The notes: generated from the sequence alone by a model not told the origin. Positions 34,733-45,101 are shown, numbered from the stretch's first letter. The stretch is DNA of 64,000 nt from an uncultured virus (IMG/VR IMGVR_UViG_3300014004_000001) (IMGVR_UViG_3300014004_000001:62001-126000); one strand, 5' to 3'. Numbers and translations are program-made.

Positions 34733-34760
34733 AAACAAAAAAGCCTCCACGAGGGAGGCT
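34733..34760 (-). terminator. Terminator closing the tRNA-cluster transcripts
   Basis: AGCCTCC-CTCGT-GGAGGCT + TTTTTGTTT. Confidence 0.85.
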
Positions 34761-34842
34761 CTATGCGAGTTAGGGTTAACATGTGTCCCTAATGCTATTT
34801 TAACATTTTGGTATAAAAATGTCTGTAGGATAATTCTTAGAA

Positions 34843-35112
34843 TTAAGGTCGGTTAATTACCTTAACAGTTTGTCCTTTGTCGTTCATCAGATAGGCTGAT
34901 TCAGTTTTGTGAACAAAGATAACACGTTCACCTGCGATAACAGAGGCTACCACGCCATCTGGTCGATCATAACCTTCCCAATGATACTGAATAATTACGT
35001 CATCCTCTAAGCAGTAAAAGAATTCTTCTTCATTTACATTGAAAGGGACGGTATTGTAAATCTTTACTTCATCTTCTTTAGAAAATTTACGGATTGTTTT
35101 TAACGTATACAT
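34843..35112 (-). CDS. Phage protein (89 aa, AYLMNDKGQTV motif)
   Basis: Start reassigned to the ATG at 35112 (TAGGA RBS); the ORF-track extension overlaps tRNAs. Confidence 0.7.
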   Translation of the reverse strand: MYTLKTIRKFSKEDEVKIYNTVPFNVNEEEFFYCLEDDVIIQYHWEGYDRPDGVVASVIAGERVIFVHKTESAYLMNDKGQTVKVINRP

Positions 35113-35148
35113 GATGTGTCCTATTAAGTATTTAGTGTTTAGTGGGTT

Positions 35149-35175
35149 GTGCGTTTTAGGAGTCGCACCCCTCCC
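35149..35175 (-). ncRNA. H-type pseudoknot in the leader of the 89-aa gene
   Basis: S1 GGGAG/CTCCT, S2 GTGCG/CGCAC, L3 AAAA. Confidence 0.55.
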
Positions 35176-35225
35176 TCTTAGAAGGAACCAGGCAAGGTCT
35201 TCAAAGATACCGCTGGCGCGATATT

Positions 35226-35304
35226 TGGAGGCGGGAATCGGATTCGAACCGATGATCTCCAGCATATGAAACTGGCGAGGACGACCAAACTCCTCTATCC
35301 CGCT
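35226..35304 (-). tRNA. tRNA-Met(CAT), initiator-like
   Basis: CCAGT-TTCATAT-GCTGG anticodon arm, A1xC72 mismatch, A11-U24, CCA. Confidence 0.9.
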
Positions 35305-35307
35305 ATT

Positions 35308-35380
35308 AGGTGTCCCGTGCTGGATTCGAACCAGCATCACAATAAGTTGTGGATCTCTTATCCTGTAAGTCTAACGGGAA
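35308..35380 (-). pseudogene. tRNA-like gene without an anticodon loop (Arg-like body)
   Basis: Acceptor TCCCGT/ACGGGA, perfect T arm, anticodon arm CACAA-CTTA-TTGTG, ends CCT. Confidence 0.7.
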
Positions 35381-35382
35381 AC

Positions 35383-35456
35383 TGGTTGTTTCGACAAGAA
35401 TCGAACTTGTGTCTCACGATTATCAGTCGTGGGTTCTACCATTGAACTACGAAACA
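35383..35456 (-). tRNA. tRNA-Ile(GAT)
   Basis: CACGA-CTGATAA-TCGTG; CCA. Confidence 0.95.
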
Positions 35457-35462
35457 TTTAAT

Positions 35463-35539
35463 TGGTCGGGACGGAGTGATTCGAACACTCGACCTCTCGC
35501 TCCCAAAGCGAGCGCACTACCAAGCTGTGCTACGTCCCG
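35463..35539 (-). tRNA. tRNA-Pro(TGG)
   Basis: CTCGC-TTTGGGA-GCGAG; CCA. Confidence 0.95.
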
Positions 35540-35589
35540 TGATAACATTCTAAAGGTACACCGCAAAAGAAAATGTTCGGCGGCTCCTC

Positions 35590-35628
35590 GTTTTTAACTT
35601 CACACTTGAGGTAGTGACTCACCTTTGT
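35590..35628 (-). ncRNA. Solitary ToxI-like (pseudo-ToxI) pseudoknot RNA
   Basis: AGGTGAGTCACTACCTCAAGTGTGAAGTTAAAAAC versus recalled ToxI AGGTGATTTGCTACCTTTAAGTGCAGCTAGAAATTC; both stems preserved. Confidence 0.7.
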
Positions 35629-35632
35629 TATA

Positions 35633-35708
35633 TGGCTGGTCTGTCTGGATTCGAACCAAAGCTACGACAGTCAAAGTGTCGTGTGCTACCGGACTACACT
35701 ACAAACCA
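35633..35708 (-). tRNA. tRNA-Gln(TTG)
   Basis: CGACA-CTTTGAC-TGTCG; GCCA. Confidence 0.95.
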
Positions 35709-35712
35709 ATAA

Positions 35713-35805
35713 ATCATTTAATGAAGGGCAACCAGAAGAGGTGTGAGAGAAGGAGAAAACCATGAGTAAAAGAGAAAGTTTTCTGGCAACCCTTTATTAA
35801 ATAAT
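35713..35805 (-). ncRNA. Stem-loop RNA with a CU-rich anti-SD/anti-AUG loop
   Basis: 16-position plus 6-bp closing stems; loop ...TTACTCATGGTTTTCTCCTT... Confidence 0.55.
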
Positions 35806-35806
35806 T

Positions 35807-35880
35807 TGGAGCGTTCTACGAGGATCGAACTCGTGCCACCGACTTGGAAGGACGGGATGCTACCGCTACACCAAGAACGC
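35807..35880 (-). tRNA. tRNA-Gly(TCC)
   Basis: CCGTC-CTTCCAA-GTCGG; TCCA. Confidence 0.95.
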
Positions 35881-35891
35881 CCTACATCTTT

Positions 35892-35921
35892 ACTATACAA
35901 CATTTTACTATTGCTTGTCAA
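35892..35921 (-). promoter_or_regulatory. Sigma70-like promoter (tRNA cluster)
   Basis: TTGACA-18-TATAGT. Confidence 0.8.
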
Positions 35922-35930
35922 TAGTTTTAT

Positions 35931-36104
35931 TGGGGTGGGACAGTGACGAGTATCCCGTTGGGTGACTAATCCTACGTTCGGAATGTGTGGCTTCCTTCAT
36001 GTTGCACGCAACATGGTTCCGCGTTAAACACGTCGATGGAAAGATCCGCTTCTCTTTTGCTTCCATCCAACCCTACTCCGGTCAAGTTTCGGGTAACTCT
36101 TTTT
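35931..36104 (-). ncRNA. Structured ncRNA of about 170 nt (pseudoknot, hairpins, 8 GGA, ends CCA)
   Basis: GAGTT/AACTT plus ACCC/GGGT pseudoknot, GATGGAA/TTCCATC, CATGTTG/CAACATG, GGGATA/TGTCCC. Confidence 0.55.
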
Positions 36105-36109
36105 GTGAT

Positions 36110-36195
36110 CAACACAATACTAAGAACACTGTCTTTCGAGCAGACCTTGTGCACAGGATACGACGATCAATCACAGTGCTCTTAATGTTGTGTTG
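36110..36195 (-). ncRNA. Long hairpin RNA in the tRNA-Thr trailer
   Basis: 22 of 23 positions paired (two G-U), 40-nt interior. Confidence 0.6.
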
Positions 36196-36268
36196 GTGCT
36201 CCCACACCGAATCGAACGATGATTTGCGGGTTACAAAGCCGCAGTAATAGCCATTATATGATAGGAGC
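36194..36268 (-). tRNA. tRNA-Thr(TGT)
   Basis: GCGGC-TTTGTAA-CCCGC; CCA. Confidence 0.92.
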
Positions 36269-36270
36269 AA

Positions 36271-36351
36271 TGCTGGGACTCGGCAGGATTCGATACCTGC
36301 AATTCCAGAAGCCTATTGGCGACTGGGGGTTTACCTTAACTCTACAAGTCC
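36271..36351 (-). pseudogene. tRNA-like gene with a remodelled anticodon arm
   Basis: Acceptor GGACTTG/CGAGTCC, T arm GCAGG-TATCGAAT-CCTGC, arm CCAG-TC-GCC-AATA-GGC-TT-CTGG, no CCA. Confidence 0.7.
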
Positions 36352-36358
36352 ATAATTC

Positions 36359-36487
36359 TTAAATACTTTGGAGCCTTACTGACAAACCGTTAGTTTGTAA
36401 CATAGCGTATTTATATTCTGGAGCACCGCCTGTGAATGTAATTCCAATACAAACTTTCTCAAGATCAAACCAATTATCAAATAACAT
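36359..36487 (-). CDS. Small hypothetical protein (42 aa) within the tRNA cluster
   Basis: GGAGG RBS; MLFDNWFDLEKVCIG...; not in ORF track. Confidence 0.55.
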   Translation of the reverse strand: MLFDNWFDLEKVCIGITFTGGAPEYKYAMLQTNGLSVRLQSI

Positions 36488-36507
36488 AAGAACCTCCAGT
36501 TTAAATT

Positions 36508-36591
36508 TGATGTGAGATGATGGATTCGAACCACCGCGCCTTTCAGAAGGGATTTACAGTCCCCCGCAATCGACCACTCTGCCAATCTCAC
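36508..36591 (-). tRNA. tRNA-Tyr(GTA), 3' end encoded as TCA
   Basis: GGGGA-CTGTAAA-TCCCT, long variable arm. Confidence 0.92.
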
Positions 36592-36595
36592 AAAA

Positions 36596-36712
36596 TTGTT
36601 TTTAAAGTAGCCAGTATTCGCGGTACTGACTATGTGGTATCGGTGACGGTGAGAGCCATCTGCCGAAGATTTACTCTGCTAAAGTAAGAACAACAAGCTA
36701 CATTAAAAACAA
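36596..36712 (-). ncRNA. Four-way-junction ncRNA between tRNA-Ser and tRNA-Tyr
   Basis: Closing stem TTGTTTTTAA-T-GTAGC/GCTAC-T-TTAAAAACAA and three internal hairpins. Confidence 0.6.
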
Positions 36713-36714
36713 CT

Positions 36715-36800
36715 TGGCGGTAGATGTAGGACTCGAACCTACACGCCGTTTCCGACTACAGTTTAGCAAACTGTTGTGGCTACCATTTCACCAATCTACC
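36715..36800 (-). tRNA. tRNA-Ser(GCT)
   Basis: ACAGT-TTGCTAA-ACTGT, long variable arm, GCCA. Confidence 0.95.
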
Positions 36801-36806
36801 TAAATT

Positions 36807-36896
36807 TGGAGGAAGGTAATGGAGTCGAACCATCACCGTATCTCTACAATGGGCCAGGGTTCAAATCTGGTTGCGTACCACTACGCCCTACCTTCC
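36807..36896 (-). tRNA. tRNA-Ser(TGA)
   Basis: CCAGA-TTTGAAC-CCTGG, long variable arm, TCCA. Confidence 0.9.
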
Positions 36897-36904
36897 ATAC
36901 ATTT

Positions 36905-36934
36905 AATCTAACACAGAACGATGTTGATTGTCAA
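36905..36934 (-). promoter_or_regulatory. Sigma70-like promoter (tRNA cluster)
   Basis: TTGACA-18-TAGATT with extended -10 TG. Confidence 0.8.
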
Positions 36935-36944
36935 CACCTTTTAA

Positions 36945-37130
36945 AACATTTTATTATGAATGGTGACTCCACCAACCCCCGTTCTCCACGAACGGTACTC
37001 TTCGAGCAATCTACCCTTGCAATCAAACGTTGTACACCGTTAGCTTGCTCATGCATATTTGCCTCATTCTCTGCCAACCATGATCAGTGGTAGGGTTCAA
37101 ATCACTTGAGCTAATTCATACTAAAATGTT
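36945..37130 (-). ncRNA. Multibranched ncRNA of about 185 nt in the tRNA-Arg trailer
   Basis: 16 of 17 positions paired in the closing stem; GAGCAA/TTGCTC, CCGTTC/GAACGG, AACCC/GGGTT. Confidence 0.6.
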
Positions 37131-37131
37131 C

Positions 37132-37206
37132 TGGTGTCTTTACAAGGAATCGAACCTTGACTAAGAGTTTAGAAGACTCCTGTGCTATCCATTACACCAT
37201 AAAGAC
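37132..37206 (-). tRNA. tRNA-Arg(TCT)
   Basis: GGAGT-CTTCTAA-ACTCT; CCA. Confidence 0.95.
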
Positions 37207-37208
37207 GT

Positions 37209-37283
37209 TGGTGGCCCTGGCTGGTTTCGATCCAGCTACCTATCGGTTATGAGCCGACTGCTCTCCCATTGAGCTACAGGGCC
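37209..37283 (-). tRNA. tRNA(CAT), probably Ile2 (lysidine type)
   Basis: GGCCCTG acceptor resembling ileX; GTCGG-CTCATAA-CCGAT; atypical T loop ATCGAAA. Confidence 0.85.
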
Positions 37284-37288
37284 GTAAA

Positions 37289-37481
37289 TGTGGTAACAGA
37301 GACGTTGAAAGTAGTAGAAGTACGCTACCACTTCTTGGACATTAGCCCAACATTCAGCGTAAATGTTCTTGAGCCGAAGCTTTTCCGTATGCTCGTTGGT
37401 AGCTAACCTCGGAGCAAGTAGCCTCTAACACACGCAATGTGCAAATCCATCTTAACAACAGTCAACGACCCTGTTACCACA
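37289..37481 (-). ncRNA. ncRNA of about 193 nt with a kissing-loop interaction, first unit of the cluster transcript
   Basis: 19 of 20 positions paired in the closing stem; loops GCTACC and GGTAGC are complementary. Confidence 0.65.
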
Positions 37482-37494
37482 CTTGATAAAGCGT

Positions 37495-37523
37495 ATCTTA
37501 ACAAAATAAGACACGCTTGTCAA
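37495..37523 (-). promoter_or_regulatory. Sigma70-like promoter heading the RNA cluster
   Basis: TTGACA-17-TAAGAT with extended -10 TG. Confidence 0.8.
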
Positions 37524-38316: not shown

Positions 38317-38346
38317 ACTCTAACATATGTAAGATCTAAAAGTCAA
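38317..38346 (-). promoter_or_regulatory. Sigma70-like promoter
   Basis: TTGACT-18-TAGAGT with extended -10 TG. Confidence 0.65.
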
Positions 38347-38530
38347 CTAATTCTTTTAACTACTAACTAATAATAATTATTTTCTTTTTTGTTAGTTAGT
38401 TTGTTGATCAGTATAGAGCAGATCTGTTACTATCTAACTGTCTTTAAGATCTTTAAAACCTAAGTCTTTTAGATCGAGCATATACTTAACCAATAAAAAC
38501 AAGACCTTAACTCGCTGCGCTCGTTAATAG
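38331..38530. other. Putative replication origin
   Basis: AT-rich non-coding region at the strand switch, five GATC sites, inverted repeats, pas-like ACTCGCTGCGCTCG. Confidence 0.45.
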
Positions 38531-43989: not shown

Positions 43990-45101
43990 AACAGACTAAT
44001 CAGACACTTTACGGTAAAGATTCCAATGGTAAACTCAAACAGTGGACCGTCTTTACGGATGGTGCAACTGTGACTGTAGCTCACGGTAAAGTTGGCGGAA
44101 AGATTACCCAGAAATCCTATGAGGCAGAAGCCAAGAACACAGGACGTGCGAATGCAACTACACCAGAAGAACAAGCGGAAGCTGAAGCTTTTGCCAAATG
44201 GACTAAGCAACTGAAGAATGGTTATTATAAAACCACGGAAGAAGCAGAGAACCATGTTCCATCTACACCAATGAAATGCCAGGACTATAAAGATTTTGCG
44301 CATAAGGTGGTCTTCCCTGGGTATGCACAATACAAACTGAATGGCCTACGTTCAATGATCAACATGAAGGGCGAATGTTTGTCTAAAGCTGGAGAAGTTT
44401 ACAAACTCCCTCCGCACTGGCAAGGTATTCCAAACTTCATCAGCGAAGTTGTTGGTCATCCTCTGGATGGGGAAGTGTTCGCTGGTCTTGGTGTTCTTAG
44501 TTTGCAACAGATCAACAGCGCATGGAAAAAGCACAATGAGAATACACCGCTCCTCAACTATTATGTTTACGATGTTCCTGTGGCAGATATGCCATTTGAG
44601 AAGCGTGTTGAAGTATTAGCGGCTCTTAAAGCTGTAGCCGAAGATAACGGTTTGGACGAACTGATCTGTGTCGTACATACAGAGTATATTGAAAATCAAG
44701 AACAGTTGGATGCATTTTATGCTAAAGCTTTACTTGAAAAAGCTGAAGGTATCGTGTATCGTAATGCTCATGGTGTCTATGAGTTTGATAAACGTTCCTA
44801 TGACGTGATCAAACGAAAACCGCGCCAGACTTTGGAAGTTAAAGTTATTTCTATGCGTTCTGATAAAAATAACGATGGGGTGTTGACAGGTGAGATGGAG
44901 AATGGTAAACTTGTTGAGTTCTTGATGCGAAAAGATGCTCACGAAACTATCAACTACCGTAAAGCAGAGAATGCCGAAACTTTGATTGGTCAGTTTGTTG
45001 AGATCGAGTATGAAGAATTTTCTGATGAAGGTATCCCAACTAAACCAGTCGGTGTACGTCTTCGTAAAATGATCCCAGGGACTTGGGAGCCAGCAGAGTA
45101 A
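43986..45101 (+). CDS. ATP-dependent DNA ligase
   Basis: QYKLNGLR (motif I), LDGEV, YVYD, EGIVYR, IKRK; TTG start at 43986 after GGAGG. Confidence 0.9.
   Translation: MKQTNQTLYGKDSNGKLKQWTVFTDGATVTVAHGKVGGKITQKSYEAEAKNTGRANATTPEEQAEAEAFAKWTKQLKNGYYKTTEEAENHVPSTPMKCQDYKDFAHKVVFPGYAQYKLNGLRSMINMKGECLSKAGEVYKLPPHWQGIPNFISEVVGHPLDGEVFAGLGVLSLQQINSAWKKHNENTPLLNYYVYDVPVADMPFEKRVEVLAALKAVAEDNGLDELICVVHTEYIENQEQLDAFYAKALLEKAEGIVYRNAHGVYEFDKRSYDVIKRKPRQTLEVKVISMRSDKNNDGVLTGEMENGKLVEFLMRKDAHETINYRKAENAETLIGQFVEIEYEEFSDEGIPTKPVGVRLRKMIPGTWEPAE

What the first reader, a model, noticed from the sequence alone, without database searches (positions are those of the whole stretch)
35113..37481. tRNA cluster as a carrier for a panel of about 8 structured ncRNAs: candidate RNA-based counter-defence system
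Seen: every spacer longer than about 80 nt between tRNAs, except one holding a 42-aa ORF, is non-coding and folds as a separate unit. Five are closed by 16-23-position stems (35713-35805, 36110-36195, 36596-36712, 36945-37130, 37289-37481) and three contain H-type pseudoknots. All lie on the tRNA strand under three near-consensus sigma70 promoters and share one terminator. Known: RNase P and 3' tRNA processing release spacer RNAs; T4 and T5 have uncharacterised stable RNAs in their tRNA clusters; phage PhiTE uses a ToxI mimic; RNA anti-CRISPRs mimic repeats. Inference: the tRNAs act as processing punctuation that releases abundant decoy RNAs, several of which resemble ligands of host defence or regulatory proteins (separate findings below).
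Basis: partly seen in the sequence, partly recalled or inferred. Interest (0 to 1): 0.9.

Follow-up and report, generated by a model that had tools for sequence, protein, structure and literature searches.

The report
Structured small RNAs between phage tRNAs
The gaps in this coliphage's tRNA gene cluster hold conserved, folded non-coding RNAs of the kind long known but unexplained in phages T4 and T5, and nothing yet shows that they are decoys against bacterial defences.

Summary
The window is a Phapecoctavirus (97.5% to phiWec179). Its 11-tRNA operon on the minus strand does carry conserved non-tRNA RNA modules. Compensatory base changes support four. These are the 193-nt leader, U3 (36712-36596), hairpin U4 (36195-36110) and U5 (35805-35713). 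Two tRNA-sized spacers are tRNA-shaped, and TL1 is a homologue of T5 'RNA3'. U2 has only a conserved outer scaffold.

Three modules extend beyond this genus:
- U3 sits directly 5' of tRNA-Tyr in four genera.
- U4 occurs in lambdoid prophages, and its loop hexamer stays self-complementary.
- U5 occurs in three lineages.

None has an Rfam family.

Not confirmed:
- "Every spacer folds": 35632-35540 and 36109-35925 do not.
- The pseudoknots occur at chance level.
- All decoy resemblances fail. There is no ToxI or CRISPR match, and the type I-E repeat match is 11 nt, reached in 23 of 200 shuffles.

Best reading: stable small RNAs cut out of the tRNA precursor, as in T4 and T5, with function unknown. 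This scan reported the same cluster eight times on other genomes.

The parts
37495..37523 (-). Promoter P1 (TTGACA-17-TAAGAT, TG-extended)
   Evidence: 10 of 12; -35 hexamer invariant in 12 aligned sequences
37289..37481 (-). Leader RNA: a 22-bp closing helix enclosing about 10 inner helices. It ends 5 nt before tRNA-Met.
   Evidence: z -4.35. Of 73 pairs, 97.8% are paired and 14 changed on both sides; slid controls give 0-2. The tRNA strand folds at -70.6 against -54.0 kcal/mol for the opposite strand. Found only in Phapecoctavirus-type records: 71 of 71 hits cover at least 80% of the query.
37132..37283 (-). tRNA-Met(cat) and tRNA-Arg(tct)
36945..37130 (-). U2: stem-closed spacer with a conserved outer scaffold and a non-homologous centre of about 50 nt
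   Evidence: z -2.58. One compensatory pair; the covariation term is unfavourable. 17-nt inverted repeat, 94% complementary.
36905..36934 (-). Promoter P2
36715..36896 (-). tRNA-Ser(tga) and tRNA-Ser(gct)
36596..36712 (-). U3: four-helix RNA lying directly 5' of tRNA-Tyr
   Evidence: z -3.86. 37 pairs, 100% paired, 5 changed on both sides. The same fold holds in 11 sequences from 5 genera, with 6 compensatory pairs. It abuts tRNA-Tyr in Tequintavirus K18, Certrevirus PBES02 and Vequintavirus 10C2.
36509..36592 (-). tRNA-Tyr(gta)
36359..36487 (-). 42-aa ORF with a GGAGG ribosome-binding site. It occupies the place of tRNA-Asn in phAPEC8-type relatives.
   Evidence: no PHROG family
36272..36352 (-). 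TL1: tRNA-shaped RNA (acceptor stem plus T arm) whose 'anticodon' arm is a long hairpin with a tetraloop. Homologue of T5 RNA3.
   Evidence: z -3.06. 98.2% conserved. Compensatory acceptor and T-arm changes in Justusliebigvirus muut. 71% identity over 66 nt to T5 rna3, E 3.4e-4. Not scored as a tRNA by Rfam at E<=10.
36194..36268 (-). tRNA-Thr(tgt)
36110..36195 (-). U4: 31-bp hairpin with a conserved apex of about 40 nt and a 7-nt loop GUGCAC-A. It starts in the CCA of tRNA-Thr.
   Evidence: z -5.62. 99.6% conserved. The family covers 20 distinct sequences from Phapecoctavirus, lambdoid prophages, Sashavirus and Bas81: 98.6% paired, 7 compensatory pairs, slid controls 0-2.
35925..36109 (-). 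'mid' spacer: two conserved blocks with small hairpins around a variable centre and no closing stem
   Evidence: z -0.44; 1 compensatory pair; its 52-aa ATG ORF is not conserved
35892..35921 (-). Promoter P3 (TTGACA-18-TATAGT)
   Evidence: 11 of 12
35807..35880 (-). tRNA-Gly(tcc)
35713..35805 (-). U5: closing stem of about 27 bp and a conserved pyrimidine-rich loop (...UCAUGGUUUUCUCCUUC...)
   Evidence: z -4.92. 99.2% conserved. Four different stem sequences in four lineages all keep the stem and the loop.
35633..35708 (-). tRNA-Gln(ttg)
35540..35632 (-). Unstructured, insertion/deletion-prone spacer
   Evidence: z +0.22; 5, 93 or 200 nt long in relatives
35383..35539 (-). tRNA-Pro(tgg) and tRNA-Ile(gat)
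35305..35382 (-). TL2: tRNA-shaped RNA with intact acceptor and T arms and an aberrant anticodon arm
   Evidence: z -3.19; 96.2% conserved; no compensatory change seen
35226..35304 (-). tRNA-Met(cat), flagged pseudo in the phAPEC8 and Mt1B1_P17 records
35147..35225 (-). Conserved trailer module: a GCCA-loop hairpin (35222-35205) and a compact H-type pseudoknot candidate (35175-35149)
   Evidence: 94% identity in the phAPEC8 group and 81-85% in Justusliebigvirus; sequences; pseudoknot candidate (invariant, so no covariation); z -1.55
34843..35112 (-). 89-aa gene downstream of the cluster
   Evidence: phrog_8729, E 1.1e-40
34740..34762 (-). Intrinsic-terminator-like hairpin plus T run

Best explanation
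The spacers of this Phapecoctavirus tRNA operon are genes for small structured non-coding RNAs.

Three host-type sigma70 promoters make polycistronic precursors. RNase P cuts at each tRNA 5' end, and the tRNA 3'-end machinery (RNase E and exonucleases, possibly RNase III on the long helices) cuts behind each tRNA. This frees the intervening pieces. Long terminal helices (leader, U2, U3, U4, U5) or a tRNA-like fold (TL1, TL2) protect those pieces from exonucleases. They would therefore accumulate as stable RNAs, as RNAC/RNAD do in T4 and RNAI, III, IV, 1, 2, 2H, 3 and X do in T5.

The parts under strongest selection are the apical loops, not the stems. The RNAs therefore most likely act through a specific partner (a protein or another RNA) that is still unknown.

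Shown here: conservation, strand, covariation, non-coding status, position flush with tRNA ends, and homology of TL1 to T5 RNA3.
Inferred: processing, accumulation and action in trans.
For: CONSERVATION. U4, U5, TL1 and TL2 are 96-99.6% identical across 11 Phapecoctavirus loci. The flanking ORF is 72% identical and the unstructured spacers 72-74%.

COVARIATION. Leader: 14 of 73 pairs changed on both sides. U3: 5 of 37, and 6 of 38 across five genera. U4 family: 7 of 25. Slid controls give 0-2 pairs in every case. U5 has four different stem sequences with one conserved loop. TL1 has compensatory changes in its acceptor and T arms.

STRAND. The leader and U4 fold better on the tRNA strand. The hexamers of all three promoters are conserved.

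NON-CODING. Sense ORFs are not conserved.

MODULES ABUT tRNA ENDS. U4 starts in the CCA of tRNA-Thr. In 5 IMG/VR prophage contigs the U4-like hairpin ends at the first base of tRNA-Arg. U3 ends 0-15 nt before tRNA-Tyr in four genera.

PRECEDENT. The T5 RefSeq record annotates 8 misc_RNAs as 'stable RNA with unknown functions' (three as tRNA-like or putative tRNA-like) among its tRNAs. TL1 matches T5 rna3. T4 RNAC and RNAD have unknown function and are confirmed by Northern blot (PMC9697503, passages). An E. coli tRNA 3' external transcribed spacer acts as an sRNA sponge (PMC9514646, passages citing Lalaouna 2015).
Against: - No direct evidence that any unit accumulates as a discrete RNA. The only RNA-library data were assembled contigs that also cover the flanking genes.
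- No partner has been identified.
- U2 has one compensatory pair and a non-conserved centre. TL2 and the trailer show no covariation.
- U3's tight linkage to tRNA-Tyr fits a cis-acting role at least as well.
- By one measure (pairs with a change on both sides), U3 is reached by 80 of 500 column shuffles.
- The sequences are few and related: 7 distinct for the leader and 11 for U3.
Confidence: 0.6

Rival explanations
1. The modules are purely cis-acting processing and folding elements. The long closing helices bring neighbouring tRNAs together and insulate their folding. They also serve as RNase III or RNase E entry sites that split the precursor. The excised pieces are by-products.
For: - Closing helices of 17-31 bp are within the size range of RNase III substrates (the size range is from recall).
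- U3 travels with tRNA-Tyr through four genera while its upstream neighbour changes.
- T5 has a non-homologous but equally stem-closed leader before its tRNA-Tyr.
- A role for RNase III in T4 tRNA synthesis is in print (McClain 1979; seen only as an entry in the reference list of PMC4810235).
- The E. coli model of polycistronic tRNA processing is given in PMC2190699 (abstract in a search listing).
Against: - The loops are conserved more strongly than the stems. The U4 apex of about 40 nt is nearly invariant across unrelated phages, and the U5 loop across three lineages. A mere cutting site or insulator does not need that.
- U4-like hairpins lie in lambdoid Q-to-holin leaders with no tRNA within 1.2 kb in 23 of 35 loci.
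Confidence: 0.25
2. One reading: the tRNAs are punctuation that releases a panel of decoy RNAs. These would mimic ligands of host defence systems (ToxIN, type I-E CRISPR-Cas, anticodon nucleases).
For: - The region turns over like an accessory locus: cassettes of 93, 113 and 187 nt come and go, a tRNA-Asn is swapped for an ORF, and several tRNAs diverge to 65-81% identity.
- U3 is linked to tRNA-Tyr and TL1 to tRNA-Asn. These are tRNA species that I recall, from no call here, being linked to defence nucleases.
- The trailer hairpin shares its GCCA loop and 3 stem pairs with the type I-E repeat.
Against: - No Rfam ToxI or CRISPR-repeat match at E<=10.
- No tandem repeats.
- The type I-E match is 11 of 29 nt, reached in 23 of 200 shuffles, and is broken by a TT insertion in the phAPEC8 group.
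- TL1 and TL2 have no anticodon loop.
- No unit resembles an anticodon stem-loop.
Confidence: 0.1
3. The units are selfish or DNA-level elements: small mobile cassettes with terminal inverted repeats, or protein-binding DNA palindromes. On this reading they are not functional RNAs.
For: - Presence/absence polymorphism of several cassettes.
- The U4-like module is shared by unrelated phages at 83-87% identity.
- U2, U3 and U5 fold equally well on either strand.
Against: - Conserved G-U pairs and strand asymmetry in the leader and U4.
- The position is fixed relative to tRNA ends.
- The most conserved units (U4, U5, TL1) are present in every Phapecoctavirus locus examined, 11 of 11.
- The U4 loop hexamer changes while staying self-complementary. 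A fixed protein site would not do that.
Confidence: 0.05

Closest known systems
Phage T5 tRNA-region stable RNAs (rnaI, rnaIII, rnaIV, rna1, rna2, rna2H, rna3, rnaX; RefSeq NC_005859)
   Same: These are non-coding RNAs interleaved with tRNA genes on the same strand under host-type promoters. Three of them are annotated as tRNA-like or putative tRNA-like. TL1 is a sequence homologue of rna3 (71% over 66 nt). Both lie next to tRNA-Asn, in T5 and in phAPEC8-type relatives.
   Different: Apart from TL1, no unit of the window matches the T5 region at E<=1 by sensitive blastn; there were only short chance-level hits. U3 does occur in T5-like Salmonella phages, but T5 itself has a different stem-closed leader before tRNA-Tyr. 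Accumulation has been shown for T5 and not for this phage.
Phage T4 RNAC and RNAD (species 1 and 2 RNAs of the tRNA region)
   Same: Small RNAs encoded with the phage tRNAs. They are detected by Northern blot and their function is still unknown (PMC9697503, passages).
   Different: Homology was not tested here. T4 has two such RNAs, whereas this cluster has seven to nine modules.
E. coli 3' external transcribed spacer of glyW-cysT-leuZ (Lalaouna et al. 2015)
   Same: A spacer released from a tRNA precursor acts in trans, as a sponge for the sRNAs RyhB and RybB (PMC9514646, passages). It is the established example of the mechanism proposed here.
   Different: It is host-encoded, short and weakly structured. 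No base-pairing target is known for any unit of the window.
RNase III processing helices (rrn operon stems, T7 early-RNA sites; recalled, not from a call)
   Same: Long, imperfect double-stranded helices of about 20 bp or more flank units of a polycistronic stable-RNA precursor.
   Different: There the helices enclose the functional RNA or lie between mRNAs, and their loops are not conserved. Here the enclosed loops are the most conserved part.
HIV-1 dimerisation initiation site kissing loop (recalled, not from a call)
   Same: The U4 apical loop is a 6-nt self-complementary word followed by A. Positions 2 and 5 of that word covary as U/A, G/C and C/G. GUGCAC and GCGCGC are, as I recall, the two HIV-1 DIS variants.
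   Different: There is no relationship by descent. Dimerisation is untested. In the alignment of 20 distinct sequences, 2 carry the non-complementary GUGCCC. These are 3 of 35 loci.
RNA anti-CRISPRs (repeat mimics) and the PhiTE pseudo-ToxI
   Same: They are phage non-coding RNAs that neutralise a defence system by mimicry.
   Different: Those RNAs are near-copies of the host repeat. Here there are no tandem repeats and no Rfam match, and the CRISPR-repeat similarity is at chance level.

Membership tests
Stable RNAs of phage tRNA clusters (T5 rnaI/III/IV/1/2/2H/3/X; T4 RNAC/RNAD) | Encoded among phage tRNA genes, on the same strand, within the same transcription units | tested here: met
Stable RNAs of phage tRNA clusters | Non-coding | tested here: met
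   Sense ORFs are not conserved in relatives. Indels are not in multiples of three.
Stable RNAs of phage tRNA clusters | Accumulate as discrete stable RNA species during infection | not testable with these tools
   Only assembled contigs of RNA libraries were available, and they also cover the flanking genes.
Stable RNAs of phage tRNA clusters | Sequence homology to a described member | tested here: met
   Met for TL1 only: T5 rna3, 71% over 66 nt, E 3.4e-4, with the shared TAGAGTTAAG block and a T arm with compensatory changes. The other units have no match to the T5 tRNA region at E<=1. T4 was not tested.
tRNA (Rfam RF00005), for TL1 and TL2 | Cloverleaf with a 7-nt anticodon loop, scoring as a tRNA | tested here: not met
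   Not called by ARAGORN. Not among the RF00005 matches at E<=10. The anticodon arm is a long hairpin with a 4-nt loop.
Any described RNA family (Rfam 15) | Match at the gathering score | tested here: not met
   Only tRNAs match. The best sub-threshold hit in a spacer is CC0196 at 18.6 bits against a gathering score of 35. The U4-like loci L020 and L021 also give only tRNAs.
RNA anti-CRISPR / solitary type I-E repeat mimic | Near-full-length similarity to the host CRISPR repeat, including its hairpin | tested here: not met
   11 of 29 nt at 35220-35210, reached in 23 of 200 shuffles. The match is not conserved in the phAPEC8 group.
ToxI-like antitoxin RNA mimic | Tandem repeats of about 36 nt resembling ToxI | tested here: not met
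   No tandem repeat at score >=30. No ToxI match among the 21 Rfam matches at E<=10.
RNase III processing site | Imperfect double-stranded helix of about 20 bp or more | tested here: met
   Leader 22 bp, U4 31 bp, U5 about 27 bp.
RNase III processing site | Cleavage by RNase III | not testable with these tools
   Needs an rnc mutant or an in-vitro assay.
Kissing-loop dimerisation hairpin (DIS-like), for U4 | Self-complementary 6-nt loop word kept through covariation | tested here: inconclusive
   Positions 2 and 5 of the word: G/C in 9, C/G in 6, U/A in 3 and U/C in 2 of 20 distinct sequences. Only one position pair varies. A scan with the hexamer left free returned the same 29 IMG/VR contigs.

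The most novel reading that the evidence does not exclude
The cluster is an RNA toolkit in which each module has its own partner.

- U4 would be a self-dimerising (kissing-loop) hairpin shared by lytic Stephanstirmvirinae and lambdoid prophages.
- U3 would be an RNA that has travelled with phage tRNA-Tyr through several genera because it works with, or protects, that tRNA in the conflict with tRNA-Tyr-cleaving defences.
- U5 would use a loop that is the exact complement of an ideal Shine-Dalgarno-plus-AUG region to silence a host mRNA.

Together these would form a tRNA-processing-dependent, RNA-based system for host takeover or counter-defence.
Probability: 0.12. Interest if true: 0.85.

Novelty: new member of a known kind. 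Interest (0 to 1): 0.5.

Why it matters
Phage tRNA clusters are now read mainly as codon-usage aids or as replacements for tRNAs cut by defence nucleases. Roughly 40% of this cluster is instead conserved non-tRNA RNA. The T4 and T5 counterparts have stayed unexplained for about 50 years.

- the tRNA-Tyr leader U3, found in five genera;
- the U4 hairpin, shared by lytic phages and lambdoid prophages, with a lambda relative just behind tR';
- the U5 stem-loop.

It also links TL1 to T5 RNA3. That makes the old question testable in easy E. coli phages by deletions, pull-downs and dimerisation assays. The families could also be used to annotate many phage genomes in which overlapping spurious 'hypothetical proteins' are currently called on these stretches (for example).

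Tried and rejected
RNA-SEQ SUPPORT. One search found 24 runs, 6 on record as RNA. Four RNA runs were laid. All were assembled contigs, and they cover flanking genes as well as the cluster. They show neither ends nor abundance, so they say nothing for or against discrete RNAs.

PSEUDOKNOTS. No crossing helix of at least 5 bp among the MFE-unpaired positions of the five units. A cluster-wide H-type scan gave 6 against 4.4 +/- 2.5 in shuffles. The leader candidate at 37423-37390 is contradicted by covariation that supports a nested alternative. The trailer candidate at 35175-35149 is invariant. Pseudoknots with stems of 3-4 bp were not examined.

TYPE I-E CRISPR REPEAT MIMIC. At chance level.

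ANTISENSE MICRO-ORF IN U5. The plus strand at 35749-35800 reads AAGGAG, 7 nt, ATG and 12 codons. The start codon is ATA in phiWec188, and the peptide length and frame differ between lineages. I rejected it as the main reading.

U5 LOOP TARGET.
- The only other match in the phage genome has 3 mismatches.
- E. coli K-12 has 9 matches with at most 3 mismatches, against 2 for the reversed control.
- One of these is the translation start of the gapC pseudogene, with 16 contiguous nt. Another lies antisense inside tdcC.
- This is a lead only.

HOMOLOGY TO T5 RNAs. None for any unit other than TL1.

COLLECTION SCANS WITH A tRNA-Ser WORD. They gave only 3 IMG/VR and 3 metagenome loci.

MISTYPED PATTERN. 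Searches used a pattern with one N too many. Their hits are chance matches and were not used.

LITERATURE. Searches found no paper describing the spacer RNAs of Phapecoctavirus (listings and abstracts only). The T4 genome review PMC150520 is not held.

Full report
WHAT THE REGION IS

The window belongs to a Phapecoctavirus (Stephanstirmvirinae). The 2.4-kb stretch is 97.5% identical to Escherichia phage phiWec179 and 89% to phAPEC8, and 67 phage records cover at least 80% of it.

ARAGORN finds 11 tRNA genes, all on the minus strand, between 37283 and 35226. Rfam at gathering score finds only tRNAs.

Read 5' to 3' on the minus strand, the layout is:
- promoter P1
- leader 37481-37289
- tRNA-Met, tRNA-Arg
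- U2 37130-36945
- promoter P2
- tRNA-Ser, tRNA-Ser
- U3 36712-36596
- tRNA-Tyr
- 42-aa ORF
- TL1 36352-36272
- tRNA-Thr
- U4 36195-36110
- 'mid' 36109-35925
- promoter P3
- tRNA-Gly
- U5 35805-35713
- tRNA-Gln
- spacer 35632-35540
- tRNA-Pro, tRNA-Ile
- TL2 35382-35305
- tRNA-Met
- trailer
- an 89-aa gene (phrog_8729)
- terminator-like site 34762-34740

CHECKING THE OBSERVATION

The five stem-closed units are real. Their MFE z-scores against 200 dinucleotide shuffles run from -2.58 to -5.62. Three of the closing stems are also detected as DNA inverted repeats. They make up 3 of the 11 such repeats in the whole 64-kb window.

The three promoters match 10-11 of 12 consensus positions. Their hexamers stay fixed while their spacers vary across 12 aligned Phapecoctavirus sequences.

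Sense ORFs inside the spacers are not kept in relatives.

Three parts of the observation fail:
- Spacer 35632-35540 (z +0.22) is an insertion/deletion. It is 5 nt long in three relatives and 200 nt in two. The 'mid' segment has z -0.44.
- H-type pseudoknots are no more frequent than in shuffles.
- The terminator follows a protein gene, not the last tRNA.

ARE THE FOLDS SELECTED?

The cluster is a mosaic. Across 11 Phapecoctavirus loci the flanking ORF is 72% identical to the window. Some tRNAs drop to 65-81% (Ser-tga, Tyr, Thr, Pro). U4, U5, TL1 and TL2 stay at 96-99.6%. The leader, U2 and U3 are 81-86% identical, which leaves room to look for compensatory change.

| Unit | Sequences | Pairs | Cells paired | Pairs changed on both sides | Slid controls |
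|---|---|---|---|---|---|
| Leader | 7 distinct | 73 | 97.8% | 14 | 0-2 pairs, 42-48% paired |
| U3 | 11 | 37 | 100% | 5 | 0-1 pairs |
| U2 | 5 | 62 | - | 1 | - |
| 'mid' | 8 | 26 | - | 1 | - |

For U3, the number of varying pairs is reached by 80 of 500 column shuffles, but the number of varying cells by none. U2 keeps an invariant outer scaffold, and its centre is replaced by unrelated sequence. 'mid' has two conserved blocks with small hairpins.

THREE MODULES REACH BEYOND THE GENUS

U3. It occurs at 75-82% identity in Justusliebigvirus, in T5-like Salmonella phages, in Vequintavirus and in Certrevirus. In 11 sequences from these five genera the same four-helix fold holds, with 6 compensatory pairs. 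It ends 0-15 nt before a tRNA-Tyr gene in four of the genera, although the upstream neighbour differs. In Justusliebigvirus a tRNA-Lys is inserted between them. T5 itself has a non-homologous but likewise stem-closed leader of about 100 nt before its tRNA-Tyr.

U4. It is near-invariant in Phapecoctavirus. Its apical 60 nt recur at 83-87% identity in several other settings:
- a lambdoid Klebsiella prophage, 165 nt behind a four-tRNA cluster, between Q and the holin gene;
- E. coli prophages (11 of 5426 complete genomes);
- a Sashavirus;
- the BASEL phages Bas79 and Bas81;
- 29 IMG/VR contigs.

In 20 distinct sequences, 98.6% of cells pair and 7 pairs changed on both sides, against 0-2 in slid controls.

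Eleven of 35 such loci have a tRNA within 200 nt on the same strand. In five of them the hairpin ends at the first base of tRNA-Arg.

Phage lambda carries the same stem with a different apex at 44786-44863, directly behind the tR' terminator.

The 7-nt apical loop is a hexamer plus A. The hexamer is GUGCAC in Phapecoctavirus. In the other 35 loci it is GGGCCC in 26, GCGCGC in 6 and GUGCCC in 3. Positions 2 and 5 therefore stay complementary in three Watson-Crick states. Those positions cannot pair within one loop, so this points to loop-loop pairing between two molecules. Only one position pair varies, so the evidence is suggestive, not strong.

U5. It occurs in four lineages (Phapecoctavirus, Justusliebigvirus, Klebsiella phage phi1_175008 and a small IMG/VR contig). 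Each has a different stem sequence of 25-28 bp and the same pyrimidine-rich loop.

THE tRNA LOOK-ALIKES

TL1 and TL2 have a 6-7-bp acceptor stem and a canonical T arm. Their anticodon arm is a long hairpin with a 4-nt loop. Neither ARAGORN nor the Rfam tRNA model calls them.

TL1 keeps this shape in Justusliebigvirus muut through compensatory changes in the acceptor and T arms. It is therefore not a decaying pseudogene. It matches T5 'rna3', annotated as 'putative tRNA-like RNA' and lying next to tRNA-Asn. TL1 lies next to tRNA-Asn in phAPEC8-type relatives as well. In the window's own subgroup the tRNA-Asn has been replaced by the 42-aa ORF.

WHAT IT MOST LIKELY IS

The closest known thing is the set of eight 'stable RNA with unknown functions' features in the T5 tRNA region (RefSeq annotation). 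Next are T4 RNAC and RNAD, which are seen on Northern blots and still have no function (PMC9697503, passages).

The modules start or end at tRNA termini. RNase P and the tRNA 3'-end enzymes would therefore release them. Their terminal helices or tRNA shape would then shield them from exonucleases. These steps are inferred, not shown.

The apical loops are conserved more strongly than the covarying stems, in U4 across unrelated phage families. I therefore favour RNAs that act through a specific partner (0.6) over pure processing or insulator elements (0.25). The latter remain plausible for U3, given its linkage to tRNA-Tyr. They are also plausible for the long helices as RNase III sites. A role of RNase III in T4 tRNA synthesis is cited in PMC4810235's reference list. 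An E. coli tRNA spacer acting as an sRNA sponge shows that excised spacers can work in trans (PMC9514646, passages).

THE DECOY INTERPRETATION

Nothing tested supports it:
- no Rfam ToxI or CRISPR-repeat hit at E<=10;
- no tandem repeat;
- the best similarity to the K-12 type I-E repeat is 11 nt, reached in 23 of 200 shuffles and interrupted in the phAPEC8 subgroup;
- no anticodon-loop mimic.

What remains in its favour is only the accessory-locus behaviour of the region. I give it 0.1.

LEADS

The U5 loop is the exact complement of GAAGGAGAAAACCAUGAG, an idealised ribosome-binding site plus start codon.
- In the phage the only other match has 3 mismatches.
- In E. coli K-12 the best matches are the start of the gapC pseudogene (16 contiguous nt) and an antisense site inside tdcC.
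- The plus-strand 12-codon ORF that this implies is not conserved.

STANDING

The RNA-library contigs were uninformative.

The same cluster has been reported eight times by this scan on other genomes, with concordant readings. I re-tested the lambda link, the T5 annotation and the spread of U4 myself.

I file the finding as a new member of a known kind. It is real and fairly interesting as RNA biology, but the counter-defence claim is unproven.

Noticed in passing
window 36487-36359 (minus strand): A 42-aa ORF with a GGAGG ribosome-binding site occupies the slot where phAPEC8-type relatives have tRNA-Asn. It is present only in the window's subgroup (phiWec179, phiWec188, PsgM04F) and has no PHROG family.
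   Followed up: partly
L003:1802-1990 and L004:1798-1985 (phiWec188, PsgM04F): A 187-nt cassette is inserted between tRNA-Thr and U4. It begins with a second, diverged U4-like long hairpin with a different loop. A 113-nt insertion also follows TL1 in the same phages. I did not test that.
   Followed up: no
L056:986-1064 (phage lambda 44786-44863): Directly behind the tR' terminator of the 6S RNA, lambda has a 78-nt hairpin. Its stem is the same as that of the prophage U4-like elements, but its apex differs. It overlaps the end of the annotated orf-64.
   Followed up: partly
window tRNA genes 36896-36807, 36592-36509, 36268-36194, 35539-35463: tRNA-Ser(tga), Tyr, Thr and Pro are only 65-81% identical to their phAPEC8-group counterparts. 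Arg, Ile and Ser(gct) are 99-100% identical. Some relatives' tRNA-Tyr and the last tRNA-Met are flagged pseudo by their annotators.
   Followed up: no
window 35175-35149 (minus strand): A compact H-type pseudoknot candidate, GGGAG/CTCCT plus GTGCG/CGCAC with loops of 2, 1 and 4 nt, lies in the conserved trailer. It is invariant in Phapecoctavirus and Justusliebigvirus, so it cannot be tested by covariation.
   Followed up: partly
window 35749-35800 (plus strand) and E. coli K-12 1490709-1490726: The complement of the U5 loop reads AAGGAG, 7 nt, ATG and 12 codons. The same 16-nt word is the translation start of the K-12 gapC pseudogene.
   Followed up: partly
L004 and L006 (PsgM04F, vB-Eco-KMB37 records): The public annotations place many short 'hypothetical protein' CDS on both strands over the tRNAs and structured spacers. 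These are probably over-calls.
   Followed up: no
L019 (metagenome contig), Thr-Gly spacer: One Phapecoctavirus-like contig has a 1028-nt Thr-Gly spacer instead of about 313 nt. Some Justusliebigvirus loci have a 431-nt Gly-Gln spacer instead of 99 nt. The contents were not examined.
   Followed up: no
window 38325-38342 / 38466-38483: An 18-nt inverted repeat (83% complementary) with 123 nt between its arms lies about 800 nt upstream of the cluster.
   Followed up: no
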